From Heteronotia binoei (taxonomy: Eukaryota), in assembly GCF_032191835.1 (NCBI RefSeq), contig NC_083223.1:138322001-138386000 (forward strand): 64,000 nucleotides of DNA, written 5' to 3'. The notes below the pieces were generated by a model. It saw nothing but the letters and a program-made list of their open reading frames with translations, was not told the DNA's origin and searched no databases. Of this stretch, positions 10,376 to 64,000 are shown piece after piece; the first letter of the stretch is position 1; each line of letters begins with the position of its first letter. The position numbers and the translations under genes were made by a program.

Positions 10376-10573
10376 GTGTCACTGTGTGACTTCCCCAACA
10401 TAATGATGTCACATGGAAGTGACATCATCATGTTGGGGATGTCACGCAGTGACACTAGTATTTTAGGCAAACTCTATGGTTACCAAAGAGTTTTGCCCAA
10501 AATGCCAGAGCATTGCCATGCAGTGTCCCTGATGTGATGATCTGGCTTCTGCACAACGTCATCACATTGGGGA
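10376..10573. repeat. Triple-hairpin cassette interrupting the start of the L2 endonuclease
   Basis: 37-bp arms 10376-10412/10419-10455 (3 mismatches). Second hairpin 10460-10503, third 10526-10540/10559-10573. No counterpart at the equivalent position of the second L2. Confidence 0.8.
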
Positions 10574-11424: not shown

Positions 11425-14400
11425 ACACGGCAGATTCAACAGCCTGGGTATTCCCAATTAGAGAAGCCCTATACGGGGCTCAGGGGAGCCCAGGTTGTGC
11501 ATTGAGACGGAGAATACCTGAGGCGATGTGGACAGAAGCTTGCTCCTCGGCCGGGCCAACCAAGAGACCAAGAGACTGCAGGAAAGACCTCGCCTCCCCT
11601 CCCAGACTGCCAGGCTATAGATGTCCCGAGCGGCCGAATTAAACCCTGAAGTTGTTGTCGTCACCTGCACTTGCACTTTAACATCAATGGAGATTAACTT
11701 ACAAACGATATACCACTGAAGAACATCTATGGGCAGTGTGCAATAATCTCCCAACAGAATATTTGGACTCACACCCCACTGATGAACGACGGTTAGCTCA
11801 CTAATAGAACCTAGTATTATTATTGTTAATTAATTATTCGATTAATTTATCAATCAATTAGCAACTGAATTAATATATTTATATTTTAAAAAATTAGCTT
11901 ATTAATTAGGATGGGGTGGGAGGGATTATTTATTAGTAAGGTTAAGAATAAACGAATTTATAGGAATTTTTAACTAATTGATTGTAAAGTAGATTGGGAG
12001 GGTTAATTAAATTAATCAATTGATTTACGATATAAATTGTGGGTTTATGAGCCGGGAATCGGAGGGGTTGGTGAGAAGGGGTGGACTAGAACGACGGGTG
12101 GAGACAAATCGGGGGAGTGACACCGGTGAGTTTATCTTGGGCTGGTGCAGATGTTCGGCCAAGGGATCCCAGTGCTCCTGCGGAGGGGAAGATATGACGG
12201 TGGGAATAGACAGAAATATAATGGAAGGAGACAGAGACAAAATGGTGCTCGGCCACCTTCCAGTCTATTTCCCATCCCAACGGTGGCAGGTAGTGGGGCC
12301 AAGAGGAAATGCTCGCCTCTGTCATTGGTGTTATGTAACACCAGGTCCATAAATAATAAGACCGCAATCCTTAAGGAGTTCCTGCTACAGCAGAACGTGG
12401 ACCTGGCTTGCGTGACCGAGACCTGGGTGAGGGATGGGGAGACAGTAGCTCTCTCCCAGATGTCCCCCCTGGGATACTCGGTCTTTCACCAATCATGGAT
12501 TAGCGGGCGGGGGGGAGGGGTAGCGCTACTCATACGGGAGGATTACTCCTTTCGGGCTCTCCCGGACCCAAAGATCGACGGAGTTGAATGCGCCGGTCTG
12601 GCGTGGGATGTTGGAGAGGGGTTGGCAGTTTGACTGGTGTACCGTCCGCCTAACACACCAGCTAACGCCTTACCATCACTATTGGAGGCAGTGGCGGGCT
12701 GGGCGTTGGAGTACCCGAGGCTAATGGTCCTGGGTGACTTCAACGTCCATGCTGACGACACGGCCTCCACTCAGGCGATGGACCTAGTGTCGTCCATGGC
12801 AACACTGGGACTCTCTCAATTTGTCACGACTCCCACGCATCAGGCCGGGCACACATTAGACCTGATCTTTGCGTCCGGGATCGTGGTGAACGATATCGCC
12901 GTAGAAGCGGTTCCATGGTCGGATCACCTAGCCCTTAAGGCCCGTATGGGGGCGCCGCCCCAACCCTGTATGGGCGGAGAACCTATTTTGGCTCGCCCTC
13001 GGGGCCTGATGGACCCAGAACGGTTCCAAACGGCCCTGAGGGATCCCTGGCCCACTGGCAATTCCCTCAATGACCTGGTGGAAATCGGGCAAGGCCAGCT
13101 ATCCAGGGCTATCGATGAAATTGCACCCCGGCGTCCTCTGCGCCCTCGTATGAAGCTGGCTCCATGGTATACCTTGGAGCTGCGCCAGCTGAAACAAGGG
13201 CTCAGACGACGAGAGAGGCAGTGGAGGCATACTCGGGACGAAGCGACGAGAACATCCTACAGAACGTTTATGAAGTCTTATGAGATGGCAGTCAAGGCTG
13301 CAAAGAAAGATTACTTTGCAACCAAGATTGCATCTGCAAATTCGCGCCCAGCACAATTATTGGGGATCTTATAACATTGCCACAAGGCAAACCAAACGTT
13401 AGAGAATTAGAAATAGGCTGTGAGGCATTTGCGAAATACTTTGCAGATAAAATCTCGTTACTCCGCCAAGACCTGCCTACCACGTTGGATACAGTGAGTG
13501 AAATTGGGGCTCCGTGCCTGTCTTCGGGTTCAGTGCTGGATCACTTCGACCCACTCAGCCTGGAGGAAGTCGACAGAATCCTCTCCGCTGCTCGCCCAAC
13601 AACATGTGATCTGGACCCTTGCCCCTCTTGGCTGATTAAATCTTGCCAGAGGGAGCTTAGATGTCCTTTACGGGACATCATAAATAGATCCCTCCTAGAG
13701 GGGCATTTTCCAACACCTCTGAAAGAGGCCTCGGTCCGCCCTCTCTTGAAAAAAGCTACAGCAGACCCGGCCGAATTGGCGAACTATCATCCGGTGTCTA
13801 ATTTACCGTTTTTAGGTAAAATTATTGAGAGGGCTGTGGCGTTGCAGCTACAGAGATTTCTGGATGACGCTTCTATCCTAGACCCATGCCAGTCTGGCTT
13901 CCGGCCGGGCCATGGGACGGAGACGGTGCTGGTCGCCTTGATGGATGACCTCCAGCGGCAACTGGATCGAGGCGGCGTTGCGGTGCTGATGCTGTTAGAC
14001 CTGTCGGCGGCATTTGACACAGTCGACCATCAGCTACTGACGCGCCGCCTCGCCGACATTGGGTTGGGGGGTCGGCCTTACAATGGCTTTCCTCCTTTCT
14101 CCTGGGTCGGGGACAGAGGGTGGCTATCGGGGGTGAGCGGTCCCGGAGGCACACACTGGATTGTGGGGTGCCTCAGGGAGCAGTTCTCTCCCCGATGTTG
14201 TTCAACATCTATATGCGCCCCCTTGCCCAGATTGCCCGGCGGTTTGGGCTGGGTTGCCATCAATATGCAGATGACACCCAGCTCTATCTATTAATGGACG
14301 GCCGGCCCGACTCCGCCCCAGGGAATCTCGACCGGGCTTTACAGGCTGTTGCGACGTGGCTTAGGCTGAGTGGGCTGAAGTTGAAGCCAGCAAAGACAGA

Positions 14401-15365
14401 GGTCCTTTGTGTGGGTCACGGCGCTCTGGGAGGGGGAATAGCTCTCCCGGCCTTCGACGGTGTGCCATTGAAAGCAGCGCACCAGGTAAAGAGCCTGGGT
14501 GTTCTACTGGAGCCTTCATTATCCATTGAGGCCCAGATAGTAGCCACTGCCAAGTCAGCATTCTTCCACCTGAAGCGGGCAAGGCAGTTGGCACCTTTCC
14601 TTGAGCGCCGGGACCTCGCAACGGTGATCCATGCAACGGTCACCTCAAGATTGGACTACTGTAATGCCCTCTACTTGGGGCTACCTTTGTGCCGGACCCG
14701 GAAGCTGCAGCTAGTGCAGAACGTGGCGGCCAGGCTGTTGTTGGGACTCCCGAAATGGGAACATATACGGCTGGGGCTACGTGGACTGCACTGGCTGCCG
14801 ATTATATACCGGGTCCAGTACAAAGTGTTGGTCATTACCTTTAAAGCCTTATATGGCTGAGGACCCGCCTACCTGAGGGACCGTCTTTCCCCCTATGAAC
14901 CCCAGAGAGCACTGAGGTCAGCCGGGAAAAATCTAATGGCTATCCCTGGGCCGAAAGAGATTAAACATCAAAATATCAGAGCACGGGCCTTTTCAACCGC
15001 GGCCCCTGCCCTATGGAACCAACTCCCTGAGGAGGTGCGGGCCCTGCGGAACCTTGACCAGTTCCGCAGGGCCTGCAAGACCACCCTTTTTAAACTTGCT
15101 TACTCAGACTGCTAAAGAAGGCTGTTAAATAAGGATCCACCAATGCAGTTTAAAGACTTAGACCGCTGTGTATAAACTGGCAGAACTAGCGTCAAACACC
15201 ACCAGCACTGTCAGACCAAACTATCTAATTGACTGGTTTTAATATTGTTAAATTTAATGTTTTATATTGTTAAATTTAAAGGTTTTATTTATTACTGTAT
15301 GTTTTTAAGAAATGTTGTTAGCCGCCCTGAGCCTGCCGAGGCGGGGAGGGCGGGATATAAATAAA

Positions 15366-15426
<61 letters not shown>
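11425..15426 (+). mobile_element. Young, near-intact L2-clade LINE (APE + RT)
   Basis: ORFs 12145-14860: LVLCNTRSINNK...ACVTETW...VYRPP...VLGDFN...WSDH, then YHPVSNLPFLGK...LLDLSAAFDTVDH...GVPQGAVLSP...QYADDTQLY. Only a few stops and frameshifts, abundant CpG, 3' UTR and (TTA)n tail. Confidence 0.95.
15367..15426. repeat. (TTA)n microsatellite, L2 tail
   Basis: About 20 perfect TTA units directly after the L2 terminus. Confidence 0.95.
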
Positions 15427-27203: not shown

Positions 27204-27466
27204 GTCTGAAGTTATTCGGATTTTGAGCTGGTCTTCTAATTAATTCCTACTGAAAACATTGGGAAAATTAACTGAGACTGTCTCAGTTCCTAGGACTTAT
27301 TCATAACTAACTTTAATGGCATCAGGGCCACTGATTACATTCTAGTTCCTTTCTAAGCTTATTTAAATCTTTCCTGTAAAGTACTCCATAAAGTATGATT
27401 ATATTCTCAATTTGTGTCCTGTTCTTCCTTCATTTTAACCTCCAGTAATTCCTGTGAGATAATTAT

Positions 27467-28418
27467 ATTGGGAGATAGTGTGAGTGCTTTCACATGTAAT
27501 GGTAAACAATGCTGTGAAATTCTCAGGCTCATCTCCCACTATCGAAGTCCATGTTCCTAGTGCAGCAGAATCAGAGATAAGGGAGGTGAAGGGCTAAGTT
27601 TCCACTGGAATGGACAGCTTGAGTGACAGGCTGCTCCTCATTTCTGATTGGCCACCACCAGCTGAGAAAAACTATGTGATCAGCCAAGTGCTGAAGAGAG
27701 TTGAGTTCAGTTCATTCCATTCTAGAGGTTATGTCTGTTGGAACCATTCTGAAGGCAGTCAGTTGGTTTTGGGCAGGGTTTGAAGTCAGTGAGTCTGGCA
27801 CCTTTAAGTAAAGGAAAAAGACCCCTTTGCCTTAACTATAGTGTTCCTATCCCAAGGATGAATCCATTAACAGAATTCAAAGTCTTAAGTGTCAGGCTAA
27901 GCTGAAGTACACTTTACATGGAAACCAGAACTGGGATGGTGATTTGGCAAGAGTGATTGGGTAGTGTGCTGAAATTCCCTTTTAAGCCAAAATGAACAGG
28001 GAGAAGATTAATTCCTGCCCAGTTTCTCTGAGGGTTTGGCATCGAAGAGATCTGATGTGAAGGGAAAATGGCTTTAGACAACACAGGGGGACAGAAATAA
28101 ACTATAGTTTCAAGAGAGTGCGGTGCTCAGAGGCCCACTCCAAGAAAACTACATTGTCATAGAAAACTCTCTGAAGAAACTTTGTTGCTGTAACTAAAAT
28201 ACAAAATGAAACATTTCTCACTATTAAGAGCCTAGAATATATGCAAACAAGCTTCAAGATAAATATTTTGCCTGTTAAAGAAGTGTAGCTTGAAATACCA
28301 ACAAGTTTTACCTCAACTTTTCCACCCCCTGACTACACCTATTATCCCCTGCCTGTTAGATAAATTTTAAGATTTCTGTTAAGATTTTAAGATGGTCTAC
28401 TGTACCATCTCAAGTGCC
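27467..28418 (+). repeat. Source copy of a ~0.93-kb locally duplicated segment
   Basis: Aligns co-linearly with 40113-41038, with scattered substitutions and small indels (e.g. 19 bp ttttgggcagggtttgaag absent in the copy). Confidence 0.95.
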
Positions 28419-28981
28419 ATTTCAATGGGTAAAACAAGAGGGCTCCTTTTCCCCCCATCAATTTCCCGGGCTGGGCTAAAAGCCTAATTATATTATGTGT
28501 AACAGGATGGTACAAACAGACTATCACAAACGTGCTACTTGGGCTGTTTAGTCACAGCAGTGAACAAAACCTTTGGCAGGAAAATCTGCCTTGCAGGGGG
28601 GGAGTGACAGGTTTGTAGCTCATAAATTCATGATTTCAGCATTTACAACAAACCATATCTTGTTAAAATCACAAGATGTAGTTTGTTTCTTGCCTCTAAG
28701 CAAGGAATCCAAATCCATTCAAGCTGGAGAAGTCTTGTTCTCATAACATAATGTTGTTTGTTGATTCATAAAGGTGCAACCATTGACTTGCTGTAGTTCA
28801 GGTATGTGAATTTAGAGCAACAGTAAAGGGAGGGGGATGAGCCACACAAAAATCTATGGGCCCTGGTTACTTAGGGGGTCCATAGAGCAAAGCAAACAAT
28901 GTGGAAGGATTGGTAGGTTATAGGGGAAAAGGTAGAAATTTGAAGTGTGTAGTTTGTTTTTGCTATTATAGGACACACAAC

Positions 28982-29729
28982 TGTCACGACTTCACTTTTA
29001 CTTTGTTTGTAATGCTTCCACTAGGAATTTAATTCCAAACACTTCAGTTAATGTTCCCAAATGAATTTGTGCCCAAGCTCAATTTGTGCCCAAGCTCTGT
29101 TTGGACTATGTGACCCTGAGGATGAGACTCTTATATTTTAAAATCACAGGACTCCAGAATAATATAAAGCAAAATAAAATTTTATTTGTACAATAAGCAT
29201 ATCGGTTTCAAGATGTTTATAGCTTAATTCTTCAATGAATAATAATAACTTCTGACTGATGTGTCACTCTTTAACTTCACACACTCCACACTCTCAAATC
29301 CTTCTTTCTCTTCCTAACTCAACTTTCTGACACCTTCTTTCTCTCACCTTCTTATAGTACTCTAGCAATATTAGGTTTTGACTCTCTAGCCACTAATACA
29401 TCCTCTAAAGTATTCTACTTTTCTTCCCTAGAATCTTAATGCCTTTCACAGCACTAGTACAGGATTCTAATCAGAAGACTGCTTCTCAGACCTTGTAGGC
29501 TGCTGACTGACCATGACTATTAACTGCTGTCACTCTGCTGAGAGTTAACTGCTGACCTCCCTTCCTCTCTCTCCTCCCCATGCTCTCCCCATACACATGC
29601 TTCTTTGCTCCACCCACACTCTCAGTCACCAACAATCAACTCACTCATTCCCCCACTTTCATCCCCCTTTCTCTACTGCAATTTACCAACAATTAAAGGA
29701 ATACACATATCTAAATTCTAATCATTACA
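28982..29729 (-). mobile_element. Possible solo LTR
   Basis: TGT...ACA ends, AATAAA on the - strand near 29180, and a CT-rich composition distinct from the flanks. No convincing TSD. Confidence 0.4.
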
Positions 29730-30229
29730 ATGACATTCACATATGTATTCAAAAATAGGGATTATGTGGAAAGAGTTTAAAAATTGCTTTTGTAGTAGAA
29801 TATGGTAGGTAAAGAGGGTTGTTGGAAAAGGTGATGACAACTACCATTTATAGAGACCAGGTCACGAAAAGGGTCTTAACTGTAGTAATTGTGAATAGGG
29901 AGCATATTGATTTATAAGTTATTCAGGAGAAGCAGCAGAATAACCTGTTTATTCTTTTTAAACAGTGTGTAGCATTATAAACTAATTTCATTTTATTTTT
30001 AACTTCACACTCAGAATTACAAATACTGGTGTACTGAGAAGTGAATGATCTAAAGTTGAAGAAAAGAGAACATGTAGTTCTTGCCTGTCACAACCAGATC
30101 AGAAATAGATTCTGAAGTTTTATATTAATTGATTGACAAAACTCTTGCATTTCATTACTGTTGCTACATAGGTTACTTTTTCAAACTGACAGGCAATACT
30201 GGCGTGGTTGTCATTGCTGCACTGCAAAT

Positions 30230-30870
30230 ATTTACTCTGGTTTCACCACACCTGAAAAAAGGATACTGTAGAGCTTGAATAGGTACAGATAAGAGCAACC
30301 AAAATAATTATGGTGCCACGGCAGCTCCCCTGTGAGGATCAGTTAAAACATTTAGGACTGTTTAGTCTAAGGGAAAAAGGCAAGTAAGGGGAGACATGAT
30401 GTAGAAGTTTATAAAATTATGCATGGCACTGAGAGAGTGGGCAGGGAGAAACTTTTCTTCATCGCCTATAATACTAGAACTCAGAGTCATCCACTGAAGC
30501 TGAAGGTGGGAGGGGAGGGGAGATTCAGGATAGACAAAGGAAAGCATTTCTCCACACAGGATGTAGTTAATTTGTGAAACTTGCTTCCACAAAATTTGGT
30601 CATGGCCCCCAACTTCAAAAGCTTTACAAAGGGAGTGGACAAAATCATGGTGGATTGGGCTATCTATGGCTACTAATCATGATGGATATCTACTCCCTCT
30701 ATACCAGAGGTAGTATGCATCTTTAAATCAGTTGCTGCAGAGCACAGGCAGAATGATGTTTTTGCAGTCTTCTTGATTGTGTGCTTCCAAGTTGTAGTGA
30801 GTGGCTACTGTGTGAACAGAATGCTGGACTAGATGGGTCTTTGGTCTGATCCTGCATGGCTCTTATGTTG
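30230..30870 (+). mobile_element. Old CR1 3' fragment
   Basis: Degenerate WSPHLKKD..ELE.VQ.RATK-like coding sequence and 3' end ...ggactagatggg...atgttgtatgt. Confidence 0.75.
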
Positions 30871-31667
30871 TATGTATGTACAGGGCCTGTAAGATGGAGC
30901 TCTTCTGCCAGGTTTTTAATTAATCCAGTGGGCATCCTTTGAAAGTCATCACTTCCCCCAGCATATCACCATTAGCCATCATCCACATGCTATTTACCAC
31001 CTATGTCTGTAAGTTTGTTTACTGTGCTGCTCCTGTTTCATAATGTCTGTTTTTATGATATTATTTTAACTCTGTTGTTTTATTGTTGTAAACCACCCTG
31101 AGCCCGCTTATGGGATATTACATTTTGTGGGATATTACATATTCATATATTGTAATATTACAGTATTACAGTATTGCATATTCATAGGAATTTGATTTTA
31201 GTGAGCTTCATACCTCCATAAGAATATGAGCCTTGGTCTCCCTTGTCATCATTCAGCACTAATGTTCCACACTGTCTGTTGCTACATGTAGGATCAACGT
31301 CACAGTCTGCTATCACATTTGTGAGAAGTCCATGGTGAATTGTCAGAATGCCATGAGAATGAAACAAACTTGTTTGGAAAATGATTAAAATGTATTTTAT
31401 TTTTGGTAAGGATAGTAAATCAATAACATTGATCTTTGTTATAAAATCTAACTTCATATATGCAGTGCTATTTTAATGAATGTGTACACGAGCGTCTAAT
31501 ACTGAACACAGTTTTAAGGTCTTTTACAATGTTTTAAATATTAAAATAGTATATTTCATGCACCTGTGTCCCTGCTTGCTTACAGTATGTCCAGCAGTGC
31601 CCATACAAATTGTCATCAACACGAATTTCCTTGCCTGTGCCCATTCTGTCATACCCTCCTTCTCAAG

Positions 31668-34600
31668 ACCTTCTGTCTTTAAAGATGAAATTGGAAGAGG
31701 ACCAGCAAATTTGGCAGTGTATTTTGGTGTGCTGCCATGCCAAGGATTTTGAATTTCATGTGCTCAGCAGGGTACAGCACACTCTGGGACATATAATCCC
31801 CAAATATGCTTACTTTGAACAAAATGTACTGTTTAACATATGCACATTGCTTAAACTAAGTAAACTGCTTCTCTCACTTTTTCTGTCACCTTTTTTTTCT
31901 GTGATTTTCTGTGTAGTGCATCAAACAGGATAAATGTGTGCTCAGCCTACATCAGATTGATGGCATCAAAAATGCCTGGCTCTGATTTTCTTACCTGATA
32001 TATGATGAACTGATGATAAAGAGATTATATAGTGGTAATCTTCATGCCAATGAAAACTTCAAAAAAACACACTGTACGTTCTGGCAGTTTCTTGCAATCA
32101 TACCATTACTGTTAAATGAAATACTTCTAAAAATGTCACAAAATGCCTAGTCTGACTTGCCACTCTTCCCCCTCCCCCCCCCCCAATAAAGTTACTGTTT
32201 GAAAACATTCATGTATTGACTGAGCTAAACTACAAAACAAGCACTAGATACCCACCTCCAATGAGACATAAAGTACAATTAAAGCTTTTGTCTGTTCTCT
32301 GTGGCATATTTCCAATCGGCTTTAAGGAAAACTTGGTCTTGCTATGTATTCATGCTTGGGTTGTGAATGTGGGTGACTGATAATCTTAGCCACTAGAAAC
32401 AGCTCCTGTTCTGGGAATGGTCCTCTGTCTTGTTCCTAGAGAACTAGTAGCAGCACTACAGGGCCAAACCAGACCAGAAGCCTCTGCAAACAAAATGTTA
32501 GTAAACCAAAGAAACATGAATATTACTCAATCAAAATGAGTTCACAAACCAACTATAAAACTTGATTACCTGCTCAGGCAATATAAAAGAGTTTTGACCC
32601 CCCCCCCCCCAAAAAAAAAAGTATGGCTGCTGACCTTTCCATTAAATGCTAAGTAATTTGGTGGGCTCTGTTGAATTTCTCACTGTTCTCAACTCTGTTG
32701 ACTCTGGACACAGGAGATATCTGCATGTATTGTGCTTGCCTTGCAGCTCTGAAGCTAATAGTATAATATTGAATCAGACCATGGTAACACCTAACACAGT
32801 ATGTACTATGTTGTAGTGAGTCTCTGTAACAACACTGTCACCAGTATTTTAATTTGTGAAGTCTGATTAGAAGGAATGCAAAATTGCCATTATCCAGCCA
32901 CAGCAGGCAACTAACTGTATCTGAATTTTAAGTGGACAGATGTATTCATGGACAAAGGAATGAAGCAGATCCCCTCCACCCTTTAAATGCAGCCTTATCT
33001 CATTCACCTATGTTACCATGCTACCTTTCAGCAAAGTTAGGTGGGAAAGAACTGGGCATTATTGGTGTGTATGTACAAGAGTTTATTTCTGTTTCCAGGC
33101 CACCTCACACCAGTCTCTGTCTTGCTTCCTGCTTTGTTTCACTGTTTTGCTGGGAAGGAAAGAAAGGAAGGTACAGTTTTTAAAATCAGGGAGGCTGAGC
33201 TCAAAGATGTCTGTAAATTCTTTCTTTCGACTTGCTTTCTACCAAAACAAAACTTGTTTTGCTTTTAAAATTAACTAGTTTCACAAAATGTTATTGTATT
33301 TTACTGACTTTTTATTGTACTTTATTGAATTTTTAACTGCCTTTAAAGAAACTTTAACAAATTTCTTAACAACCTTCTTGTGAGCCTCGCCCCCTGCTGG
33401 CCGCGCGCCGCAGGGGGTCCGTGGCCAGGGGAGGGGAGGCAAAAGGGGCTTTTGTGGCCTCAGAAAATAGAGGGGGGTGGGCATTCCTTCATGCCACTGC
33501 CGCCTCCACAGAGGCAGGCACTCTCACTCTCTTTCTGCATTTGCCTGTAACTTCCCCACACTCTCTCCTCCCTGACGATCAGCGTTAATCCCTTTTTTAT
33601 TCCCCTCACACCTCCGTGCCCCAGCTCTCCACCCCCTTCCAGCCTGGTGTTCCCCCACTGGCCAATGCCTCCTTCCAGCTGAGCTCCCTCCTTCCTGAGT
33701 GGGTCCAGGGTGAGACCGCCCTTCAGGGAAGCTGTAGGGTGGGGCATGCCTGCTCTAGCAGGTGCATTCGATTCAGCGGCCTTCCTAGGTTTGCCCGCTG
33801 CCTCCTGCGCCTCTGGTGGCTCTGGGGTTTCCGGTCCAACCTGGCCCTGCTGCGGCCACGTCGGGCCATTGGGAACGGACGATTGCCTGGGGCCGGCTCC
33901 ACGGTGGGGTCTCGGGCACCCAACAAGCGGCTTCGACCGGCCCCCAAGTTGCCCAGCAGTAGCAGCACAGGTAGGCAGGCTTGGGAGCCCCGGGAGTCGA
34001 GCTGCCAGTGGTCCATCCATGTCACGGCCACTCCCTGTTGCCGGCGCCAGAGCGGGGCGAGGCCAAGCCACCATGGGCCCAGGCAAGGGTGGGGTGGGAC
34101 ACGGCAGCCTGGACACTTCTTTTCCAAATTTCAGCCATCAGCAGCTAAGATCTCTACTAGATGTTGCAACATTCACAGAGAGTATATAGGGCAGGAAGGA
34201 AGATGGGTTGATATGAGTTAAGGATGCTTACCCCATCTTGTGCCTAGTGATTCTGCCTCCATAGCCTTTACAATGATACATACATGAAATCCCTAGTATT
34301 AAAAGAACACACACATCCCTAAATCTAAAATTGTTCATGTTTCCCATGATTCTCCAGCTCATGATGCATTTCTAGTGGTGTAGTCCTGGAGTTAAGGAAG
34401 CAGCCCCATTCCTGGCCTAAAGAATGTATCTTCTCATGAGTGTCTGGGTGTTGAGAGAGTACTGTAATGTAAATACTTTTTTTCTATAAAGCTTCTTGTT
34501 TGACTTAATTTTCTATATGCAGTTGAAGTTTTGCGTGGCGGTTGATGCATGTGATTATTTCATTAGCAATGCAATATTCCCTCCACCCCACTTTTGGGTC

Positions 34601-37600
34601 CTGTTTCTGGCCATCTTCTCAGGCTGTGTTCACACTTCCATAAATGCAAATCTCTTTTTATTTCTTTTTGAGTGAACTTGTATAACTGGTCAAACTAGAT
34701 TAAAATAGAAACATAAGATTACATTTGCTGTTCCTTAACTTTGTAGATGAAATGCAGCCCTAACGATGTCTCTGTCTGGTTCAGGGTAGATTAAAGCATG
34801 TGCTTTCCTGTAGGATAAATTATGCGGAAATCTAATTCACCTTGAAGTGTCCTTTCTGTCAATTCCTTATGTCCCTGTTTTCCCCCTCCCTCCTTTTAAA
34901 GTTGTAGAGAAAAGTTCAAAGCAACAAAATTCTCTTTTCTGGCATGTGGAGTGAATGAGGAATTACAGTAAACTAAGGGGAAACATACTTCTCAAGAGTA
35001 TTAATATAGAGGTTTTCATCAAAGAGATGTGGACAGTGAATGGTTCAGCTGCAAGCTAGTTTAAGGAGCAAATGGACACCACATATATATGTTTGGAAGA
35101 GTACCCTAAAATCAGACCTTTTGAAGTATGTTGGAATTTTATGTTGTTCTTAATTATGCTTATTCAGCTTTCCCTCAGAGTTCTTAAAAAAGAGGGTGAA
35201 TGCTGGCAATGTATAAAAGTGATTAAATTAGCATTCTTTAGATTGTATTTAGATAATGATATTTACAAAACAGCTTTAAATCCTGTTGTCCACATATTAG
35301 AACATAAGAGAAGCCATGTTGGATCAGGCCAATGGCCCATCCAGTCCAACACTCTGTGTCACACAGTGGCCAAAAAACCCAAGTGCCATCAGGAGGTCCA
35401 CCAGTGGGGCCAGGATTAGAATAATCAATAGTGCATATTCTTAAATTCTGACATACAGTCATTCCATCGATTTTATTCAATTAATTTAAACTTTTAAATA
35501 ATGTTTTTTGAAAAGCTTAACATGGTTAACATAAAATCAGTATAGGATAAAACGCCTGCTAAAAATGAAATATTTGCTTATCTTCTGAAACCTTAAGGAG
35601 TATGTGAATATTTGAATGTGTCCTGGAAGTATGATTTGTGTTGGTTACTGAAAATAATTGAATTATCCTGAGCCTACAGAATAGGGTAGTTTAGAAATTC
35701 TAAAACAAATAAATCAGCGAATAACTTACTTGGTAATTGTCATGAGTAGATTGATTGGACCTGGCAATATTTAAAACCTACAAGTTTCTAAATACTTCAT
35801 TGTTTTATTTGTAATGGGTAAAAGTTTTGTAGAGAGTTGTAAGGAAACTGGACTTGACAATCTTGTGTTTGAGAGTCCTCATGCTACTTCTGCCATACTG
35901 GTTCTCAGATCAGCCGAGATATCACATCAGTTACTTTGGTGATTCTCCTAGGTGCCAATGAATATACTTCCACATGATTTGAAAAAGGACTTAAAAAAAA
36001 TTCCCTGCATCTCAGTATGTTGAGTCACTACTAATATTTTCCCCTTCATTTTTATGCAAATGTTTCATTTTTTAATTAATTTATGTTGAAACCCTGAAGA
36101 TCACCAAAGGGTCTGTCAGGGGTGGCCAAACTTGCTTAATGTAAGAGCCACACAGAATAAACATCAGAAGTCAGATNNNNNNNNNNNNNNNNNNNNNNNN
36201 NNNNNNNNNNNNNNNNNNNNNNNNNNNNNNNNNNNNNNNNNNNNNNNNNNNNNNNNNNNNNNNNNNNNNNNNNNNNNNNNNNNNNNNNNNNNNNNNNNNN
36301 NNNNNNNNNNNNNNNNNNNNNNNNNNNNNNNNNNNNNNGGAAAGAAAGCAACTTTAACTTTAAATGCATTCTCTGAGCCGCTGGCTGATTTGGCTTGGAG
36401 AAGTGATTTAAGAGATAAATGCCTTTTCCAAGCCAGCTGATGGGGTGGTGAAGTCTTCAAGATCCACACAATATATGTGGAAGAGCCACATGTGGCTCCC
36501 AAGCCATAGTTTGTCCTGGTCTAAGTAATACTGGTTACCAGAATATTCATAAAATGAACAGGAAGTGAATTCACCTTTAAACAGGGGTCATTTTGTAGAA
36601 AAATAGGTGGTAGAGCTCATCCAGGGATTGTTATGCAGCTGTACAATACTATTCAGTGGACAAGGAGGTGGAACTCACAGGAGGAAGTGGAACTCTCAGA
36701 AAGGTTCAGGAGCTGTGCTCCTGTGAGCTCCCACTGAATCTGAGGCCTGCCTTTAAAGATTAAAACATGCCTTTTTATTAACACCCATATTATATGTAGC
36801 AATAGGAAAAATGTGATCTGTTTTGACTGCAGCCTTTCATGGAGATAGATGTTCTTTTTCTTTTGCCACTCTATTTTACTGTTGAAGCATCTGGCTTAAA
36901 AGAGGTTAGCTGAATGTCTGTGGGGGGGACTTAAAATGGTCTTTGTTGAAATTCTTTGAAAAGTGCTAATAACAGTGGTTTCTGACAATTGCAAAATGGG
37001 ATCTCACCAATTTTAGTAAAATAGTGACACTAGACCAACAGAACTTATTTTTGAAATAGTGTTTCAGTTTGAACTGAGTTGAAGAAACAGTTTTTCACCT
37101 TTTTGTAAATGATAGACAGCTGCTAGATGGGGTAATGATCTGTCTTCTTCTCTGATACCTCATTTTATCAGTCCAAGGCTTTTCACTGAGTCAGATCTAT
37201 TGATTAGCATTAGTCTGCTTTCCAGGAAACTCACTTTGCATTGAATGTCACATGCTAAGTGTGCTAAATGTATGTCAAGAGAAGGCTTGAACCTATTGAA
37301 TACTGCCTGGTAAATTATATGTTTGCTGAGTGTTTAGTAAGTGTAATAGGTCTGCAGACCCAAAATGTTAACTGAGGTCATCTTTCTCTTGAGTGGTGGA
37401 GAGGAAATGATGCATTCATTAGAAGATAAGATAGATCTCAAACTTACCTGTGCATTTTAGATTGCAAACCCATGGCATATCTAATAACGTGCAGTACTAA
37501 TGTGTGGAAATGGAGTCATTTCTATTCTATAATAACCAAGGAGAATAGTAAAAACAGGAATGAACAATAAAGAACTCTTACTTCACTTTCACAAATATGG

Positions 37601-37747
37601 TACCCTGTAAAAATCTGGTCAGAAATACTGGGAAGTTGAGCTCTAAGTGGGTTTTATTTTGTACAGACTTACTTTTGCTTTTCTGCAGTGCTTCATGGGA
37701 TCCAGGTGCAACCCTTAAAATAAACTTGGTCACTTCCAAGACAGAAG
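31668..37747 (+). CDS. Cluster of candidate exons of an unidentified multi-exon gene (31668-31771, 33099-33170, ~34902-34967, ~35825-35938, 36833-36904, 37541-37606, 37689-37747)
   Basis: Each segment is bounded by AG/GT (several with strong polypyrimidine tracts) and has an open frame. Stop-free, phase-consistent chains can be built, but more than one alternative exists. No homolog recognised. Confidence 0.3.
35299..35416 (-). mobile_element. CR1 3'-end fragment
   Basis: agaacataagagaagccatgttggatcaggccaatggcccatccagtcc. Same family as 49680 and 54184. Confidence 0.8.
36117..36516. mobile_element. hAT MITE (CAGGGGTGGCCAAAC) spanning an assembly gap
   Basis: Left TIR intact. The right part is the reverse complement of the 16045-16345 element. 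Confidence 0.75.
36177..36338. other. Assembly gap (162 N)
   Basis: Run of N. Confidence 1.
36582..36749. mobile_element. 168-bp hAT-type MITE
   Basis: Perfect 8-bp TSD CCTTTAAA (36574-36581, 36750-36757). Ends CAGG...CCTG. Confidence 0.85.
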
Positions 37748-38922
37748 GTGAAATGCTGCTTAGTGATTGTATTAATTATACTGATGGAGGCTGGATGGGA
37801 ATTAATTGAAACCTTAGGGAATGGAGAGCTATAGCGGACATTCAGTCAGTCATAGCAACTGGTGGTTGGTTTAGGTTTCTTTTTAATCCTATGTACAATA
37901 AAAGTGATTTAAAAGAAATCTGGTTGATATGGGGAAGAATGGCTTAAACTTAGATCTATAGATCTTAAGAAACATTGAGTTAAATTGAAAGTTCTTTTGG
38001 TTATATTGTGCCCTTCTTCAAACTTGAACAATGAAATCTACAAATACTAGCTCTACATCTCACAGTATTAAATGTTGCAGAGTTTTTTATTATTTTTAAA
38101 ACAGCTGCTTTTATGTTCTTTCTCATTCAAGAATTTGTGGAAACTTGTATTCCCCATTATACGTTCTCCCTCTCTACATTATAGTAGCCTGACCTTTTCT
38201 TACCTTGAAAATTGATACAGTTCAGTATCTAAAAATGTTAGCTGTGTGCCACAAGATCTCTGGTTCAGATCTCACCTCAGTTATGGCAACATTAAGTATC
38301 CTTGGGCAAACTGCTACCTCTCAAGGTCTCCCTTACCACATCCATGCAAGAAATACATTTTCTAGACACCACTATACAAATATATAATGGAAGAATAAAA
38401 ATCGCTTTATATCAGAAATCTAACTGATCACCAAATATATCTATACAACTCCAGTCACCATTCCTAAACACACCAAAGAATTCATTGTCACCAGTCAAGC
38501 TGTACACGACAGCCACATCTGTTCCAACCAAATCATAGATTCTCACCTACAGGATCTACAACAGACCTTTTGGAATTACAATATCCACCTATTGTAGTAA
38601 GGAAACAATACCCACATGCTGTATTAAGGAAACCACATAGCCAGAATGATACCAAGGGATAACATGATACAGGATAGACCCAAGTAAAACAACAACAGAA
38701 CATTGCTGGTGGTCACATATAGCTCTCAACTCAAATTGGTTGAACACATCATTAATAACCTACAACCTTTTCTTCCCCACAGATGGTCTTCTAACCTTAA
38801 ACAGTTTCTCATCTGCTGCAGTGCCCTTCTTAACATGTACATGGATTCTGGGACCAGACCTTGCAACAAACCAAGATGGCAATTCTGTCCCCATATCCAC
38901 TCTGACAACACACTCTCTAGAC

Positions 38923-39296
38923 CAGGGGTCCTCAAACTTTTTAAATAGGAGGCCAGTTCACTGTCCCTCAGACTGTTGGAGGGCTGGACTATAGTAAAAA
39001 CAAAAACTGTCTGTTGTGGCTGCCGTTACTGTACAAGGACATGGGTCGTCAGTTCTCCGTCTTCTGCATCTCTCTCCCTTCCCAACACCACACACCCCGG
39101 CCTGGGAACTCACCTCACCTCGGTATCACCTCACACTCTGTCTCCGCCGCCTCAGCCCAGTGCCGGAAGTGTGCGTTGCTAATGCGAGTTTAGGTCGAAC
39201 ATCACTTCCGGTCTGATTTTGCCATAACCCGGCGGGCCGCATAAACGTTCTCAGCAGGCCGCATCTGGCCCGCGGGCCGTAGTTTGAGGACCCCTG
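38923..39296. mobile_element. hAT-Charlie MITE (OposCharlie1/nhAT-like ends)
   Basis: TIRs CAGGGGTCCTCAAACT / AGTTTGAGGACCCCTG. Perfect TSD CTCTAGAC (38915-38922, 39297-39304). Confidence 0.92.
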
Positions 39297-39552
39297 CTCT
39301 AGACCTACCATCTCAGGTTCATTCATTTGTTCATCGACCAATATTACATGTCATCACATGTTCCAATTCCCTTACATTCTCTACATTGGACAAACAGGTC
39401 AGTTCTTAGGCAAAATAATAAATGGACATAAATCTGACATTAAAAACCACAAGACTCAAAAACCAGTGGGAGAATATTTTACTCCAGGACATTCCATTGC
39501 TGACCTAAGAGTAGCAATCTTCAAACAAAAAAACTTCAAGGAAAGATTACAA

Positions 39553-40085
39553 CAGAGGTGTCGAACTCATTTGTTACGAGGACTGGATCTGACTTAAATT
39601 AGACATTGTCGGGCCGAGCCATGTCGGGCTGGGCCGTGTGTGTACCTATCTCAGATTAGGTAGCAGAAATATAAATTTTATAAAAGGCACACACAAACAC
39701 AAAGATTTAAAACATACTTAAAACATTAGCACCTTTAAACATTAAAGGTGCTTTCTTTGTATCTGGGCAAAGAAAGCTCTGACTCTTTCCTTCCTTCTAC
39801 AGGGGGCCAAGAGGGGGAGGAGCCTCAGCCAATAGAAGAAAGAGAGGCTTGGCTTAGTAGCTCTGCTGTACAATTGAGAGAGCCTGACAAAGCAAGCTCT
39901 CCCTCCCTCTCTCCTCGGCCAGTGGAGAAAATAGACTTTGCTCTGTAGCTCCTGTGTGATGGAGCAAGCCTTGCAAAGCAAGCTATTATGCAGAAGGAAA
40001 CAAGAGAGAGGGAGAAGGAAGCGGATGACAGCCAGTTTGCTTCAGGGCCTGATTCAGCCCCCAGTCCGCATGTTTGACACCCCTA
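39553..40085. mobile_element. hAT MITE, same family as 624-1097
   Basis: CAGAGGTGTCGAAC...GTTTGACACCCCTA. Perfect TSD GATTACAA (39545-39552, 40086-40093). Confidence 0.92.
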
Positions 40086-40116
40086 GATTACAACATGAGA
40101 TTGCTGAAGTTAAATT

Positions 40117-41142
40117 GGAAGATAGTGTGAGTGCTTTCACATGTAATGATAAACAATGCTGTGAAATTCTCAGGCTCATCCCGCACTATCTAAGTCCATG
40201 TTCCTAGTGCAGCAGAATCAGAGATAAAGGAGGTGAAAGGCTAAGTTTCCACTGGAATGGACAGCTTGAGTGACAGGCTGCTCCTCATTTCTGATTGGCC
40301 ACCACCAGCTGAGAAAAACTATGTGATAAGCCAAGTGCTGAAGAGAGTTCAGTTGAGTTCAGTTCATTCCATTCTAGAGGTTATGTCTGTTGGAACCATT
40401 CTGAAGGCAGTCAGTTGGTCAGTGAGTCTGGCACCTTTAAAGTAAAGGAAAAAGACCCCTTTGCCTTAACTATAGTATTCCTATCCCAAGGAGGAATTCA
40501 TTAACAGAATTCAAAGTCTTAAGTGTCAGGCTAAGCTGAAGTACACTTTACATGGAAACCAGAACTGGGATGGTGATTTGGCAAGAGTGATTGGGTAGTG
40601 TGCTGAAATTCCCTTTTAAGCCAAAATGAACAGGGAGAAGATTAATTCCTGCCCAGTTTCTCTGAGGGTTTGGCATCGAAGAGATCTGATGTGAAGGGAA
40701 AATGGCTTTAGACAACACAGGGGGACAGAAATAAACTATAGTTTCAAGAGAGTGTGGTGCTTAGAGGCCCACTCCAAGAAAACTACATTGTCATAGAAAA
40801 CTCTCTGAAGAAACTTTGTTGCTGTAACTAAAATACAAAATGAAACATTTCTCACTATTAAGAGCCTAGAATATATGCAAACAAGCTTCAAGATAAATAT
40901 TTTGCCTGTTAAAGAAGTGTAGCTTGAAATACCAACAAGTTTTACCTCAGCTTTTCCACTCTCTGACTACACCTATTATCCCCTGCCTTTTAGATAAATT
41001 TTAAGATTTCTGTTTGTCTGCTATACCATCTCAAGTGCCTCGGCCAGTGGAGAAAATAGAGACTTTGCTCTGTAGCTCCTGTGTGATTGAGCAAGCCTTG
41101 CAAAGCAAGCTATTATGCAGAAGGAAACAAGAGAGATGGAGA
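40117..41142 (+). repeat. Composite templated insertion: copy of 27.47-28.42 kb plus copy of MITE interior 39915-40016
   Basis: Two direct sequence matches. The insertion is flanked by AAATT at 40112-40116 and 41143-41147, and the Penelope frame resumes after it. Confidence 0.9.
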
Positions 41143-42828
41143 AAATTCATTCACGAGTTCAGACCAATGGGGGGAACCACCCATCAGTCCAGGGTTGAAT
41201 GGGGACACAGGATTCTTTTATTGCCACAAATGCTTATTTTCTGACCAAGCATTTCCTTTCTGCTCTAATCAAGCAGATTACAATATGCATTGTAGCTCTG
41301 CATCCTAAGTCTCTTTTTTTACAATACCCCTCCCACTTTCTGACTGCGACGTAAAGACTCAGATCTCCATTTCTACTTGTATCTGATGAAGGTTGCTTTG
41401 ACTCTTGAAAGCTTATACCCCCAAAATCTTGTTGGTCTCTGTGGTGCTGTTGGACTTGAATCTAGCTGTTCTACTGCAGACCAACATGGCTACACTCTGA
41501 AGCTAACCACATCTGTAGAAGTATTACATGGGTACATGTACAGACCCATGTGTGAACATTTCTTCATACATTTCTTCATATCAACAAATTAATACTTTGC
41601 TAAAATAGAACACAGTCTTACACGCCATATGAAGACTGATTTTAAGATGAGATTAAGCAACTACTGTACAGTCATGTGAAAATAAATTATGCATATATAC
41701 TGCAGAAGCATTGCAGGTGTGCTGCCCCTGATTTTAAGATTCATGTGTTAACAGTATATTTTTGAATGTTTTTAATGCATGCCAAGCTTAGAAGCATTTT
41801 AAAAATAAAGAACAAAGTAACAATGATGAGATACCCTTCCTCTAAGAAGAGACAAACATTGGAAAGAAGAGGCATGATGCTGTACAGAGCTGGAATGCTG
41901 TTTTACTAATAGCAACAGATTTTCAGAGGCAATTGCGCAGCCCACAGAAGTTGTTATTGTTATTTTTTAAAAATGCTTCTCTTTCCAGAGAAAAGTCTAA
42001 ATAACTAACTAGATTAGCAGTGATTAGAAAAATTAAAGCTATAATGATTATGATAGCAAATCATGCCTATAATAAGAAAGCCAGTAATAGTGTAACAAAT
42101 TTGTATATGGTGTTATTTTACAGAAAAATTAACAATTGAATTCCTATTTAAAAAGGAATAATTTAACACTTGCTCTGAAAATTCGTAATGTCTCACTATA
42201 GCAGGCTTTTGGAGGGCCATAATCAAAAGCCTTATTTCGAGCATTTATTTAGTAAAACAAAGTGAAAGGTCTTGTAGAAAACTATGCTACCCATATCTCT
42301 AAGGATAGGATGGCCTGTGCAGGGAGGAAAAATATATATATATATATATATATATATAAGGGTACTCTATTGAAAGAAGAAAACTAAAAGTCAGACACTC
42401 ATACCGGTTTGTCACTTTCAGCTTACAAATAGAAGAAAAAGCAGGTTGTGGAGGCTTGGAATGCACAACTTATGATGCTATTGGTAGCACAAGTAGAAGA
42501 AGGAGATATGGAATGTCTTCCTTGTTCTCTGCTGTCAGCCACTAGCAATAATAATTAACTAGTTTTGTTTAAGGGCAGCTGTGAGCAAGAAGTGGAGGGG
42601 GAAGTCAACATTCTAATTGACTTCGCTCTTGGCTAATAACTTGGAAGGCAAATATACCATTAAAAATGATTGCCTAGGGCCATCTAATGGATGGGCTGCC
42701 CCTGATAGACACTCTTTACCCCCCCCCCCCGCTAGGTGATTCTTCTTAGTTCAAGGAAAACCTTTTCTCCTATATTTGTTATTGTTATTTATTTGTTTAT
42801 AATATTTATAGTTGTCTGTCAGCTGTGA

Positions 42829-54183: not shown

Positions 54184-55730
54184 AAGAACATAATAGAAGC
54201 CATGTTGGATCAGGCCAGTGGCCCATCCAGTCCAACACTCTGTGTCACACAGTGGCTAAAAAACAAAAACAAAACCCAGGCACCATCAGGAGGTCCATCA
54301 GTGGGTCCAGGACACTAGAAGCCTGCCCATTGTGGTGCCCCCCCAAGCACCTAGAATACAGAGCATCACTGCCCCCCAGACCAAGAGTTCTAACAATACA
54401 CTGTGGCTAATAACCACTGATGGATCTCTGCTCCATCTGTTTATACAATCCCTCTTGAAGCTGTCTATTCTTGCATCCACGACCACATCTTGTGGCAGTA
54501 AATTCCATGAGTTAATCACCCCTTGGTTTATACAGGGGCATTATGATATTGGCTGATTTGTTTTCTGTTCCCTTTAGGGTTGCCAAGTCCAATTCAAGAA
54601 ATATCTGGGGACTTTGGGGGTGGAGCCAGGAACAAGGGTGTGACAAGCATAATTGAACTCCAAGGGAGTTCCGGTCATCACATTTAAAGGGACAGCACAC
54701 CTTTTTAAATGTCTTTCTTCCATAGGAAATAATAAAGGATAGGGGCACCTTCTTTTGGGGCTCATAGAACTGGACCCCCTGGTCCAATCGTTTTGAAATT
54801 TGTAGGGTATTTTGGGGAGAGGCACTAGATACTATACTGAAAATTTGGTACCTCTACCTCAAAAAATAGCTCCCCCAGAGCCCCTGAAACCTCCAGTTCA
54901 ATTCCCCATTATACATATGAGAAACGATCTCCACATAGGGAATAATGAAGACGTTTCCCTCTCCTCCACACACACACCCCTTCTCACAAATCTGATGTAG
55001 GGGATTGGCCTCTCTACTTACCAGCCAGCTTCTTCACAGCAACACAGACACAGAAAGTTGAAGCCTTTCACCACCTCCGGAGGTGCAAAGGAACATGGTC
55101 CTTTGGGACGGGGCAGGAAGCAGCCTGGGAAAGCTCCGGCTGCTGCGATGGAGCTGGGTGGGAAGGGGAGGGGCAAGGAGAAGCTGCTGTGATCCGAGGT
55201 GAGAAGGGAAGGGAGGAGGAGAAGCATCGGGGATCGGTGGGAAGGGGAGAGGAGAAGCTGCTGGGATCTAGGCTGCGTGGGAAGGGCCGCCATTCCCCCT
55301 CGCTTTCTGGATTTTTGGCGAGCGGGAGGAGCCGCCAAATTGGGAAGCCTAGTTCCCTTCCTAATAATTCCCAGCATGTCATTGGCCTTTTTTATTGCAG
55401 TCGCACACTCTCTTGACATTTTCAGTGAGTTATCTACCACGACCCCGAGATCTCTCTCTTGGGCAGTCTCTGCCAGTTCATACACCATCAGCTTGTATTT
55501 ATAGTTAGGATTTCTGGCCCCAATGCGCATTACTTTGCACTTGGCCACATTGAACCTCATTTGCTATGTTGATGCCCACTCGCCCAGCCTTGACAGATCT
55601 CTCTGGAGTTCCTCACAATCCTCTCTGGTTCTCACCACCCTGAACAATTTAGTGTCATCTGCAAATTCAGCCATTTCACTGCTTACTCCCAAATCCAAAT
55701 CATTAATGAACAAGTTAAAAAGCATCTGAC
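54184..55730 (-). mobile_element. CR1 LINE 3' portion, interrupted by a hAT element
   Basis: MRFNVAKCKVMRIG...ERDLGVVVD...KKANDMLGII, continuing across the insertion. The terminus matches 35299. Confidence 0.88.
54575..55351. mobile_element. hAT-type non-autonomous element, TAGGGTTGCCA family
   Basis: TAGGGTTGCCA...TGGGAAGCCTA. Perfect 8-bp TSD GTTCCCTT (54567-54574, 55352-55359). Confidence 0.9.
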
Positions 55731-63219: not shown

Positions 63220-63743
63220 TAGGGTTGCCAATCCCCAGGTGGGGGCAGGGGATCCCCTGGTTTGGAGGCCCTCCCCCCACTTCAGGGTCATCAGAAAGCA
63301 GGGGGGAGGGGAATGTCTGCTGGGAACTCTATTATTCCCTATGGAGATTTATTCCCATAGAAAATAATGGAGAATTGATCCGTGGGTATCTGGGGCTCCG
63401 GGGGGGCTGTTTTTTGAGGTAGAGGTACCAAATGTTCAGTACAGCATCTAGTGCCTCTCCCCAAAATACCCCCCAAGTTTCAAAATGATTGGACCAGGGG
63501 GTCCAATTCTATGAGCCCCAAAAGAAGGTGCCCATATCCTTCATTACTTCCTATGGGAGGAAGGAATTGAAAAGGTGTGCCGTCCCTTTAAATGTGAGGG
63601 CCAGAACTCCCTTTGGAGTTCATGATGCTTGTCACAGCCTTGATCTTGGCTCCGCCCCAATGTCTCCTGGCTCCACCCCCAAAGTCTCCTGGCTCCAACC
63701 CCAAAGTCCCCAGATATTTCTTAAATTGGACTTGGCAACCCTA
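63220..63743. mobile_element. TAGGGTTGCCA-family hAT-type element in the CEP164 intron
   Basis: TIRs TAGGGTTGCCAA / TTGGCAACCCTA. Right half is the reverse complement of 54575-54900. No TSD. Confidence 0.85.
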
Positions 63744-64000
63744 AAAGTGTTCCCTTCAGGTTTTTACAGAAATATTTTAGAACTGAAAATATTTAGGAAG
63801 AAAAATTGTGAAAAATAAATTAATGGCTCAGTTCAAGCTGAATACATTTGTTAACAACTGTGGTTTGATGCTACTTTTGTTGCACTGTTGGTAAAGATGT
63901 TTTGAATCCTGAGATCCTGTAAGTTCTGCACTTACAAAGGCATTAGTACCTTGTATATATGTATAGAATATATGTATGGGTGTGTGGGTAAGTTAAAAGA

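What the first reader, a model, noticed from the sequence alone, without database searches (positions are those of the whole stretch)
40112..41147. Composite two-template insertion: 0.92 kb copied from 12.6 kb away plus 0.1 kb of the neighbouring MITE
After ...gctgaagttAAATT the sequence switches to a copy of ~27470-28418 (shared ATT at the join). It then switches at a CC microhomology to a copy of 39915-40016, and returns to Penelope at AAATTcattcacg with no host bases lost. There is no poly(A), TIR or LTR, so this is not standard transposition. Serial microhomology-guided template switches fit FoSTeS/MMBIR or polymerase-theta-type templated insertion, possibly triggered by a hAT transposase nick beside the MITE end. 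Both pieces differ from their sources by substitutions and indels, which argues against a simple assembly duplication. Such events can move intronic or exonic DNA.
Basis: partly seen in the sequence, partly recalled or inferred. Interest (0 to 1): 0.7.

Follow-up and report, generated by a model that had tools for sequence, protein, structure and literature searches.

The report
Two-donor DNA repair patch in transposon
A 1-kb insert in a dead retrotransposon is stitched from two pieces copied from nearby DNA (12.6 kb and about 0.1 kb from the insertion point); it is likely the scar of one error-prone DNA break repair, a known and fairly common kind of mutation, with no sign of function.

Summary
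The structure is real. A 1,031-bp insert splits a dead Penelope element with no host loss. It is a copy of 27470-28418 (2.2% diverged) joined to a copy of 39915-40016 from the adjacent hAT MITE (2.0%). Junction microhomologies are 3, 2 and 1 bp, and 1-5 host bases are duplicated. Both copies and both donors carry their own mutations, which argues against an assembly error; no read spans a junction. This is a two-donor repair-mediated duplication, the class of Pace et al. 2009. The hAT-nick trigger is unsupported: the MITE is older and intact, the break is 27-31 bp outside it, and local duplicates are not enriched at MITEs (3 of 58 versus 12 of 251). A three-donor patch lies 0.61 Mb away, and the scan noted similar patches in other genomes. 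One lead remains: 3 of 4 donor ends sit on predicted hairpins.

The parts
39309..39552 (+). Dead Penelope-like retroelement, GIY-YIG region, left part (recognisable leftwards to at least 38,700)
   Evidence: At least 150 genomic matches at 58-71% aa identity; a paralogue carries RT and GIY-YIG in one 523-aa ORF; the window fragment itself has no Pfam hit
39553..40085 (+). hAT-type MITE with 14-bp TIRs and 8-bp TSD GATTACAA (39545-39552, 40086-40093)
   Evidence: TSD and TIRs read directly; 13,455 first-look candidates, 40 scored, best other copy 86%; the hAT label rests on recalled TIR and TSD features
39913..40016 (+). Donor 2, inside the MITE, bounded by an 11-bp perfect inverted repeat (39903-39913 / 40004-40014)
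   Evidence: Shares 6 of the 7 minority states of piece 2; none of 38 other well-matching copies shares more than 4 of those 6; stem pair probabilities 0.74-0.96
40094..40116 (+). Penelope bases between MITE and insert, ending in AAATT; junction 1 (ATT shared with 27467-27469)
40117..41039 (+). Insert piece 1: copy of 27470-28418; ends in CC shared with donor 2 (junction 2)
   Evidence: 20 substitutions in 919 bases, 4 indels; the only two near-identical places among 40 scored candidates
41040..41143 (+). Insert piece 2: copy of 39915-40016; last A shared with host (junction 3)
   Evidence: 2 substitutions in 102 bases and a 2-bp indel
41143..41400 (+). Second AAATT and continuation of the Penelope element
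   Evidence: In frame and in register with paralogues; paralogues 72-83% identical
27467..28418 (+). Donor 1: about 60-75 bp of single-copy DNA that forms a predicted hairpin (27465-27542), plus most of an old solo-LTR-like element
   Evidence: 27330-27560 found at 2 places only, donor and copy; hairpin z = -3.4, 0 of 200 shuffles
27529..28609 (+). Old ~1.1-kb interspersed repeat with TG...CA ends (solo-LTR-like; class not determined); the copy stops about 190 bp short of its right end
   Evidence: 53 further matches at 68-83% from 40 scored of 301 candidates; shared ends; a 5-bp TSD in 1 of 3 copies with both ends aligned

Best explanation
The insert is two locally copied pieces joined at 1-3 bp microhomologies inside a dead Penelope element, likely the scar of a single germline double-strand break repaired by copying nearby DNA (a two-donor repair-mediated duplication). 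Shown: the two donors, the junctions, no loss of host bases, similar divergence of both pieces, and the order Penelope, then MITE, then insert. Inferred: a staggered break at AAATT; the left 3' end primed at 27467-27469 and copied about 950 nt; the right 3' end primed at 40016 on the resected left arm and copied about 100 nt; the two new ends joined at CC. One strand switching three times in series would give the same product. The copy has since decayed like neutral DNA.
For: Both host ends are kept, with 1-5 bp duplicated. Microhomology at all three junctions (P = 0.024-0.045). Divergence 2.2% (95% CI 1.3-3.3) and 2.0% (0.2-6.9), Fisher P = 1.0. Donors assigned to the local copies. Changes on both sides: of 20 substitutions, 7 arose in the copy, 6 in the donor and 7 are unresolved; the 19-bp deletion is in the copy, the 13-bp insertion in the donor. 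No poly(A), AATAAA or splice dinucleotides at the joins. Local duplicates are common here, 12 of 251 control tiles of 3.6 kb, one of them a three-donor patch. Pace et al. 2009 describe this class, with 20 two-donor chimeras among 1,136 insertions in TEs, each with one donor within 5 kb.
Against: No read or contig spans any junction and no related genome was available to show the empty site. All pieces are colinear and on one strand, so a larger duplication trimmed later gives the same sequence. The microhomology excess is weak. The 0.92-kb piece and 12.6-kb distance exceed the proximal class of Pace et al. (maximum 619 bp, within 5 kb). Differences cluster at the ends of piece 1 (P = 0.001 raw, 0.04 after merging neighbours), so gene conversion or hairpin-linked mutation may distort the age. 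Some donor-copy differences look like polymorphism at the donor, which would make the age an overestimate.
Confidence: 0.72

Rival explanations
1. A larger local duplication came first (a 12.6-kb tandem copy of 27470-40116, or a 12.5-kb copy ending at 40016) and was later cut down by one or two microhomology deletions.
For: The pieces are colinear and in one orientation; both pieces would have the same age, as seen; short microhomologies are also typical of deletions.
Against: In the tandem version the second deletion must end within 1-5 bp of the duplication end without touching host DNA, a coincidence (reasoned, not computed). The one-deletion version is not excluded. Multi-donor patches that are not colinear exist nearby, so one-step stitching does occur in this genome.
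Confidence: 0.14
2. An RNA from this locus was reverse-transcribed by a LINE protein with a template jump and inserted at an endonuclease nick (class 1 templated sequence insertion), or used as a patch in cis.
For: The site reads TT|AAAT, one mismatch from the LINE-1 TTTT/A target, and AAATT could be a 5-bp TSD (features from PMC5110952); both pieces are on one strand; LINE remnants are abundant in the window.
Against: No poly(A), no AATAAA, no GT-AG or CT-AC at the skipped stretches; most of the 5-bp repeat is explained by microhomology; 0 of 39 proximal duplications had poly(A) in Pace et al.; insertion 96 bp from its own template is hard to get by retrotransposition; no gene or strand of transcription was found.
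Confidence: 0.06
3. The break was made by a hAT transposase acting at the MITE end, and repair captured the two pieces.
For: The break is 27-31 bp from the right TIR and one donor is the MITE. Two other MITE copies carry a short local insert inside them and one has an older duplicate of its end (L015, L209, L024).
Against: The MITE is unexcised with a perfect TSD; hAT enzymes cut at the TIR (recalled); no young members among 20 sampled copies apart from one identical tandem pair (nearest 8.9%, median 16%); no enrichment of local duplicates at MITE loci, 3 of 58 versus 12 of 251. Younger hAT families elsewhere in the genome were not searched for.
Confidence: 0.04
4. Assembly or library chimera built from the other haplotype's alleles.
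For: No spanning reads; an RNA-library contig from another sample shows the donor locus is polymorphic at 2 of the differing sites.
Against: Three precise junctions, a duplicated target and an intact host frame; derived changes on both copies of both pieces; a contig from another sample appears to carry the copy's derived states at 40228 and 40238 (inferred from the tables).
Confidence: 0.04

Closest known systems
Repair-mediated duplication with a chimeric two-donor acceptor (Pace, Sen, Batzer, Feschotte 2009, PMC2671141; parts 1-5 of 8 of the text read; supplement not seen)
   Same: Insertion of 50 bp or more interrupting a TE; intact donors on the same chromosome; two donors joined at a 2-3 nt microhomology; one donor within 5 kb; microhomology plus short target duplication; no poly(A).
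   Different: Longer (0.92 kb versus a proximal maximum of 619 bp; distant class up to 3,424 bp); second donor 12.6 kb away on the same chromosome, whereas their 20 chimeras had it within 3.5 kb of the first donor or on another chromosome; donors are repeats, which their pipeline excluded; their species table has no non-avian reptile.
Non-tandem double duplication (Frith and Khan, PMC5829575; passages read)
   Same: [quoted passage not shown]
   Different: Their inserts lie roughly half-way between the sources; here both donors are upstream and one is 96 bp from the site.
FoSTeS/MMBIR interspersed duplications (PMC6258378; passages read)
   Same: Serial microhomology junctions; duplicates inserted next to one another.
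   Different: Those are large clinical copy-number clusters; this is 1 kb, old, and keeps both host ends.
Polymerase theta templated insertions and trans SD-MMEJ (PMC12426944, passages; PMC5728401, abstract and outline)
   Same: Patchwork of flanking segments primed by minimal pairing; piece 2 has the geometry of one end copying the opposite arm.
   Different: Generally under 25 bp and templated within about 30 nt of the break; here 102 and about 950 nt.
Templated sequence insertion polymorphisms, classes 1 and 2 (PMC5110952; parts 1-2 of 4 read)
   Same: Donor intact, microhomology at the junctions (class 2); LINE-1-like target and 5-bp repeat (class 1).
   Different: Their donors are distant, not local; no poly(A) or polyadenylation signal here; polymorphism untested.

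Membership tests
Repair-mediated duplication (Pace 2009), chimeric type | Insertion of 50 bp or more that interrupts a TE whose halves are otherwise contiguous | tested here: met
   Frame and register restored against Penelope paralogues
Repair-mediated duplication (Pace 2009), chimeric type | One identifiable, intact donor for each piece | tested here: met
   both donors belong to repeat families but the local copies are clearly the parents
Repair-mediated duplication (Pace 2009), chimeric type | At least one donor within 5 kb | tested here: met
   Donor 2 ends 96 bp from the site; donor 1 starts 12.6 kb away
Repair-mediated duplication (Pace 2009), chimeric type | Repair signatures at the breakpoints, no poly(A/T) | tested here: met
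   Microhomology 3, 2, 1 bp; 1-5 bp target duplication; no tail
Repair-mediated duplication (Pace 2009), chimeric type | Empty orthologous site in a relative | not testable with these tools
   No related genome held; paralogues used instead, as Pace et al. did for some species
Repair-mediated duplication (Pace 2009), proximal class | Size within the reported proximal range (up to 619 bp) | tested here: not met
   Piece 1 is 0.92 kb; it falls within their distant class (up to 3,424 bp)
Class 1 TSIP / LINE-mediated retroposition | Poly(A) tail and upstream AATAAA | tested here: not met
   Last 44 bases of the insert have neither
Class 1 TSIP / LINE-mediated retroposition | TSD of 5 bp or more at a TTTT/A site | tested here: inconclusive
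   AAATT is repeated and the site is one mismatch from consensus, but 4 of 5 bases are explained by microhomology
Transposed LTR element or LTR pair | Insert bounded by the element's own ends, or two LTRs flanking coding sequence | tested here: not met
   Copy begins about 60 bp outside the element and stops about 190 bp inside it; no Pfam domain in the ORFs scanned between the two copies
hAT transposase-triggered rearrangement | A junction at a TIR or an excision footprint | tested here: not met
   MITE intact with perfect TSD; break 27-31 bp away
hAT transposase-triggered rearrangement | Family active when the insert formed; excess of inserts at MITE loci | tested here: not met
   Nearest non-identical copies 8.9% apart among 20; 3 of 58 versus 12 of 251; both samples are small
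Polymerase theta templated insertion | Short (generally under 25 bp) copies of sequence flanking the break | tested here: not met
   Pieces of 102 and about 950 nt (size norm)
Polymerase theta templated insertion | Genetic dependence on POLQ | not testable with these tools
   Old germline event

The most novel reading that the evidence does not exclude
Hairpins chose the donors: 3 of the 4 donor ends lie on predicted single-strand stems. Donor 2 is the loop and right arm of an 11-bp stem inside the MITE, primed at its 2-nt bulge, and donor 1 starts at the base of a 78-nt hairpin. The MITE would then have shaped the repair not by being cut but by folding into a template trap, and long repair patches in vertebrate germlines would be steered by secondary structure kilobases from the break.
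Probability: 0.15. Interest if true: 0.45.

Novelty: new member of a known kind. Interest (0 to 1): 0.2.

Why it matters
As a single event it matters little: repeat DNA copied into repeat DNA, decaying neutrally, with no gene found nearby. It is a clean and unusually large example of two-donor repair duplication in a vertebrate group not covered by the published survey I read. The side count (12 of 251 tiles of 3.6 kb, about 13 per Mb) suggests such scars are frequent in this genome, although direction and mechanism were not checked for most of them. If the hairpin link held genome-wide, it would show how distant templates are picked during break repair.

Tried and rejected
Reads: only two RNA-library contig sets from one study hold part of the stretch. 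None bridges a junction or the empty site at 90% or 97% likeness; this is no evidence either way. Transposition of the LTR-like element, and donor and copy as a pair of LTRs, were rejected on boundaries and flank. A distant MITE as donor of piece 2 was raised by a tie in bit score and rejected on diagnostic sites. Spliced-RNA origin was rejected on junction dinucleotides. Gene search: 29 ORFs and 139 more, together 150 of 229 non-repeat ORFs of 55 aa or more, gave only TE domains and one sub-threshold chance hit; short exons can be missed. A test of which copy is the acceptor in other local duplicates had no power, as it missed the focal case too. The Penelope fragment had no PDB match. Hairpin generality was not seen in eight other short duplicates: 0 of 16 segments with an inverted repeat of 8 bp or more across their ends, and 1 of 32 ends in a stem arm. 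The donor 2 region as a whole does not fold better than shuffles (z = -1.4). Literature searches for 'repair-mediated duplication' with 'lizard' and for gene conversion at duplicate edges returned 0 papers; that is two searches of an open-access library, not proof of absence. No earlier scan note lay near this place.

Full report
Observation. The window holds one near-identical pair of about 0.95 kb (27463-28418 and 40110-41039) and, directly after it, a 0.1-kb pair (39913-40016 and 41038-41143). Piece 1 differs from its donor by 20 substitutions in 919 bases and four indels; piece 2 by 2 substitutions in 102 bases and one 2-bp indel (one listed mismatch beyond the junction dropped). The junctions share ATT, CC and a single A. 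Host AAATT stands on both sides. After allowing for microhomology, 1 to 5 host bases are duplicated and the net insert is 1,031 bp.

Host and nesting. The host is a dead Penelope-like element: the 65-aa fragment left of the MITE matches at least 150 places in the genome, and one paralogue has RT and GIY-YIG in one ORF. With the MITE and insert left out, the frame is continuous, and 9 of 11 paralogues align without a net gap near the site (read). A 533-bp MITE (39553-40085) with an 8-bp TSD sits in the Penelope; its hAT label is recalled from TIR and TSD type. Divergences give the order: Penelope 20-29% from paralogues, MITE 8.9% or more from sampled copies, insert 2.2% from its donors. The genome is a 2.63-Gb vertebrate assembly; its repeat make-up suggests a reptile, which is recalled and untested.

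What was copied. About 90% of piece 1 is part of an old ~1.1-kb repeat with TG...CA ends: 53 further matches at 68-83% from 40 scored of 301 candidates, shared ends, and a 5-bp TSD in 1 of 3 copies with both ends aligned. I call it solo-LTR-like; its class was not determined. The copy is about 2% from the local element and 18-21% from eight others, carries single-copy flank found only at donor and copy, and stops about 190 bp short of the element end. Piece 2 tied in bit score with a distant MITE, so I checked diagnostic sites: it shares 6 of its 7 minority states with the adjacent MITE, and none of 38 other well-matching copies shares more than 4 of those 6.

Is it real? No DNA reads were offered. 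Two RNA-library contig sets cover no junction. Indirect evidence favours reality. Against eight family copies, 7 substitutions arose in the copy, 6 in the donor and 7 are unresolved; the 19-bp deletion is in the copy, the 13-bp insertion and a 1-bp loss are in the donor (four end-gap rows caused by slice limits dropped). Piece 2 and its donor also each carry their own changes. One contig has donor states at 40439 and 40498 but copy states at 40477 and 40493, so the donor is polymorphic and the 2.2% may overstate the age. Another has donor states at 40149-40191 and apparently copy states at 40228 and 40238; this is inferred from table counts and could be a chimeric contig.

Mechanism. Both pieces have the same divergence (2.2% and 2.0%, Fisher P = 1.0) and the summed microhomology is modestly above chance (P = 0.024-0.045). 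Both host ends survive. The simplest reading is one staggered break whose two 3' ends each copied a donor and then joined at CC. This is the two-template model drawn by Pace et al. 2009, who found 20 such chimeras among 1,136 insertions in human TEs. One strand switching three times gives the same product and cannot be excluded. Because the pieces are colinear, a larger duplication trimmed later is a real rival; the pure tandem version needs a deletion ending within 5 bp of the duplication end. An RNA route is allowed by the LINE-1-like target but lacks poly(A), a polyadenylation signal and splice sites. Pol theta insertions are generally under 25 bp.

The transposase trigger. The MITE is unexcised, the break is 27-31 bp outside it, and among 20 sampled copies the only pair under 8.9% is an identical tandem pair. 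With one filter applied to all, 3 of 58 MITE loci and 12 of 251 control tiles hold a local duplicate with a unique partner (P = 1.0; the focal site was left out of the controls). In favour of some link, two of those three lie inside the MITE itself, and one further locus has an older duplicate across a TIR that the filter removed. Younger hAT families were not sought.

How ordinary. In 1.264 Mb around the window, eight other short duplicates of 55-147 bp with a single partner were picked by eye after removing LTR pairs, terminal repeats and tandem arrays; six more pairs were ambiguous and left out; none of the eight lay within 600 bp of an end of 30 MITE-like places. A three-donor patch of about 250 bp lies 0.61 Mb away with no such MITE in its tile. 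The focal event is the largest such duplicate seen, apart from LTR pairs. Non-tandem double duplications are also catalogued in human long reads, and this scan's unchecked notes list similar patches in other genomes.

A lead. Donor 2 is bounded by an 11-bp perfect inverted repeat, and the priming A lies in a 2-nt bulge of the predicted stem. Such a repeat spans the ends of 0.07-0.2% of 104-bp segments in the window and 3.5% within this MITE. Donor 1 starts at the base of a hairpin with z = -3.4; 3% of random positions lie in such an arm. This was found after the fact with three definitions tried, the far end of donor 1 is not in an arm, and eight other duplicates show no such pattern. Donor-copy differences cluster at the ends of piece 1 (P = 0.001, or 0.04 after merging); four of the first five lie in or at the edge of the hairpin arms, so hairpin-linked mutation and central gene conversion are both possible. 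Structure-guided priming near breaks is known (PMC5728401, abstract).

Function and verdict. Pfam scans of 150 of 229 non-repeat ORFs found no host gene; short exons may be missed. The insert is a real, old, neutral-looking repair scar of a known class, larger than most published proximal cases. Papers seen: PMC2671141 parts 1-5 of 8; PMC5110952 parts 1-2 of 4; passages of PMC5829575, PMC12426944, PMC6258378 and PMC7615360 (background only); abstract and outline of PMC5728401. The supplementary list of chimeras in PMC2671141 was not seen and could hold closer parallels.

Noticed in passing
L149:5606-5853 (G000:C1:137747606-137747853): A three-donor patch of about 250 bp: two inverted pieces and one direct piece copied from 0.15-1.35 kb away, 91-96% identical; no MITE of this family in the tile.
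   Followed up: partly
window 28380-28402: The donor has its own complex change, a 13-bp local repeat insertion plus three substitutions, which creates a short hairpin absent from the copy and the family.
   Followed up: partly
window 27465-27542: A single-copy imperfect hairpin (z = -3.4) overlaps the degraded left end of the LTR-like element.
   Followed up: partly
L015:1437-1499; L209:2040-2089; L024:877-970: Short local duplicates inside two other MITE copies, and an older 94-bp duplicate spanning a MITE end and its flank.
   Followed up: partly
L018 and L019 (G000:C9, about 10.87 Mb): Two identical MITE copies 3,437 bp apart, apparently a recent tandem duplication or an assembly duplicate.
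   Followed up: no
L055:2797-2854 and 3897-3954: A 58-bp perfect local duplicate flanked by a 33-bp direct repeat at the acceptor.
   Followed up: no
window 7289-10461 and 12149-15426: Two LINE remnants in inverted orientation, 72% identical, with RT and endonuclease domains; a fragment with an LTR-type RNase H domain at 6618-7238.
   Followed up: no
window 54573-54946 and 63331-63745: Inverted pair at 85-98% identity about 8.4 kb apart, part of a repeat family.
   Followed up: no
window 33460-34221: GC-richer stretch open in five frames with no Pfam match.
   Followed up: no
L067-L126 and L147-L166: Several young LTR pairs at 94-99% identity in the 1.26 Mb scanned, showing recent LTR retrotransposon activity.
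   Followed up: no
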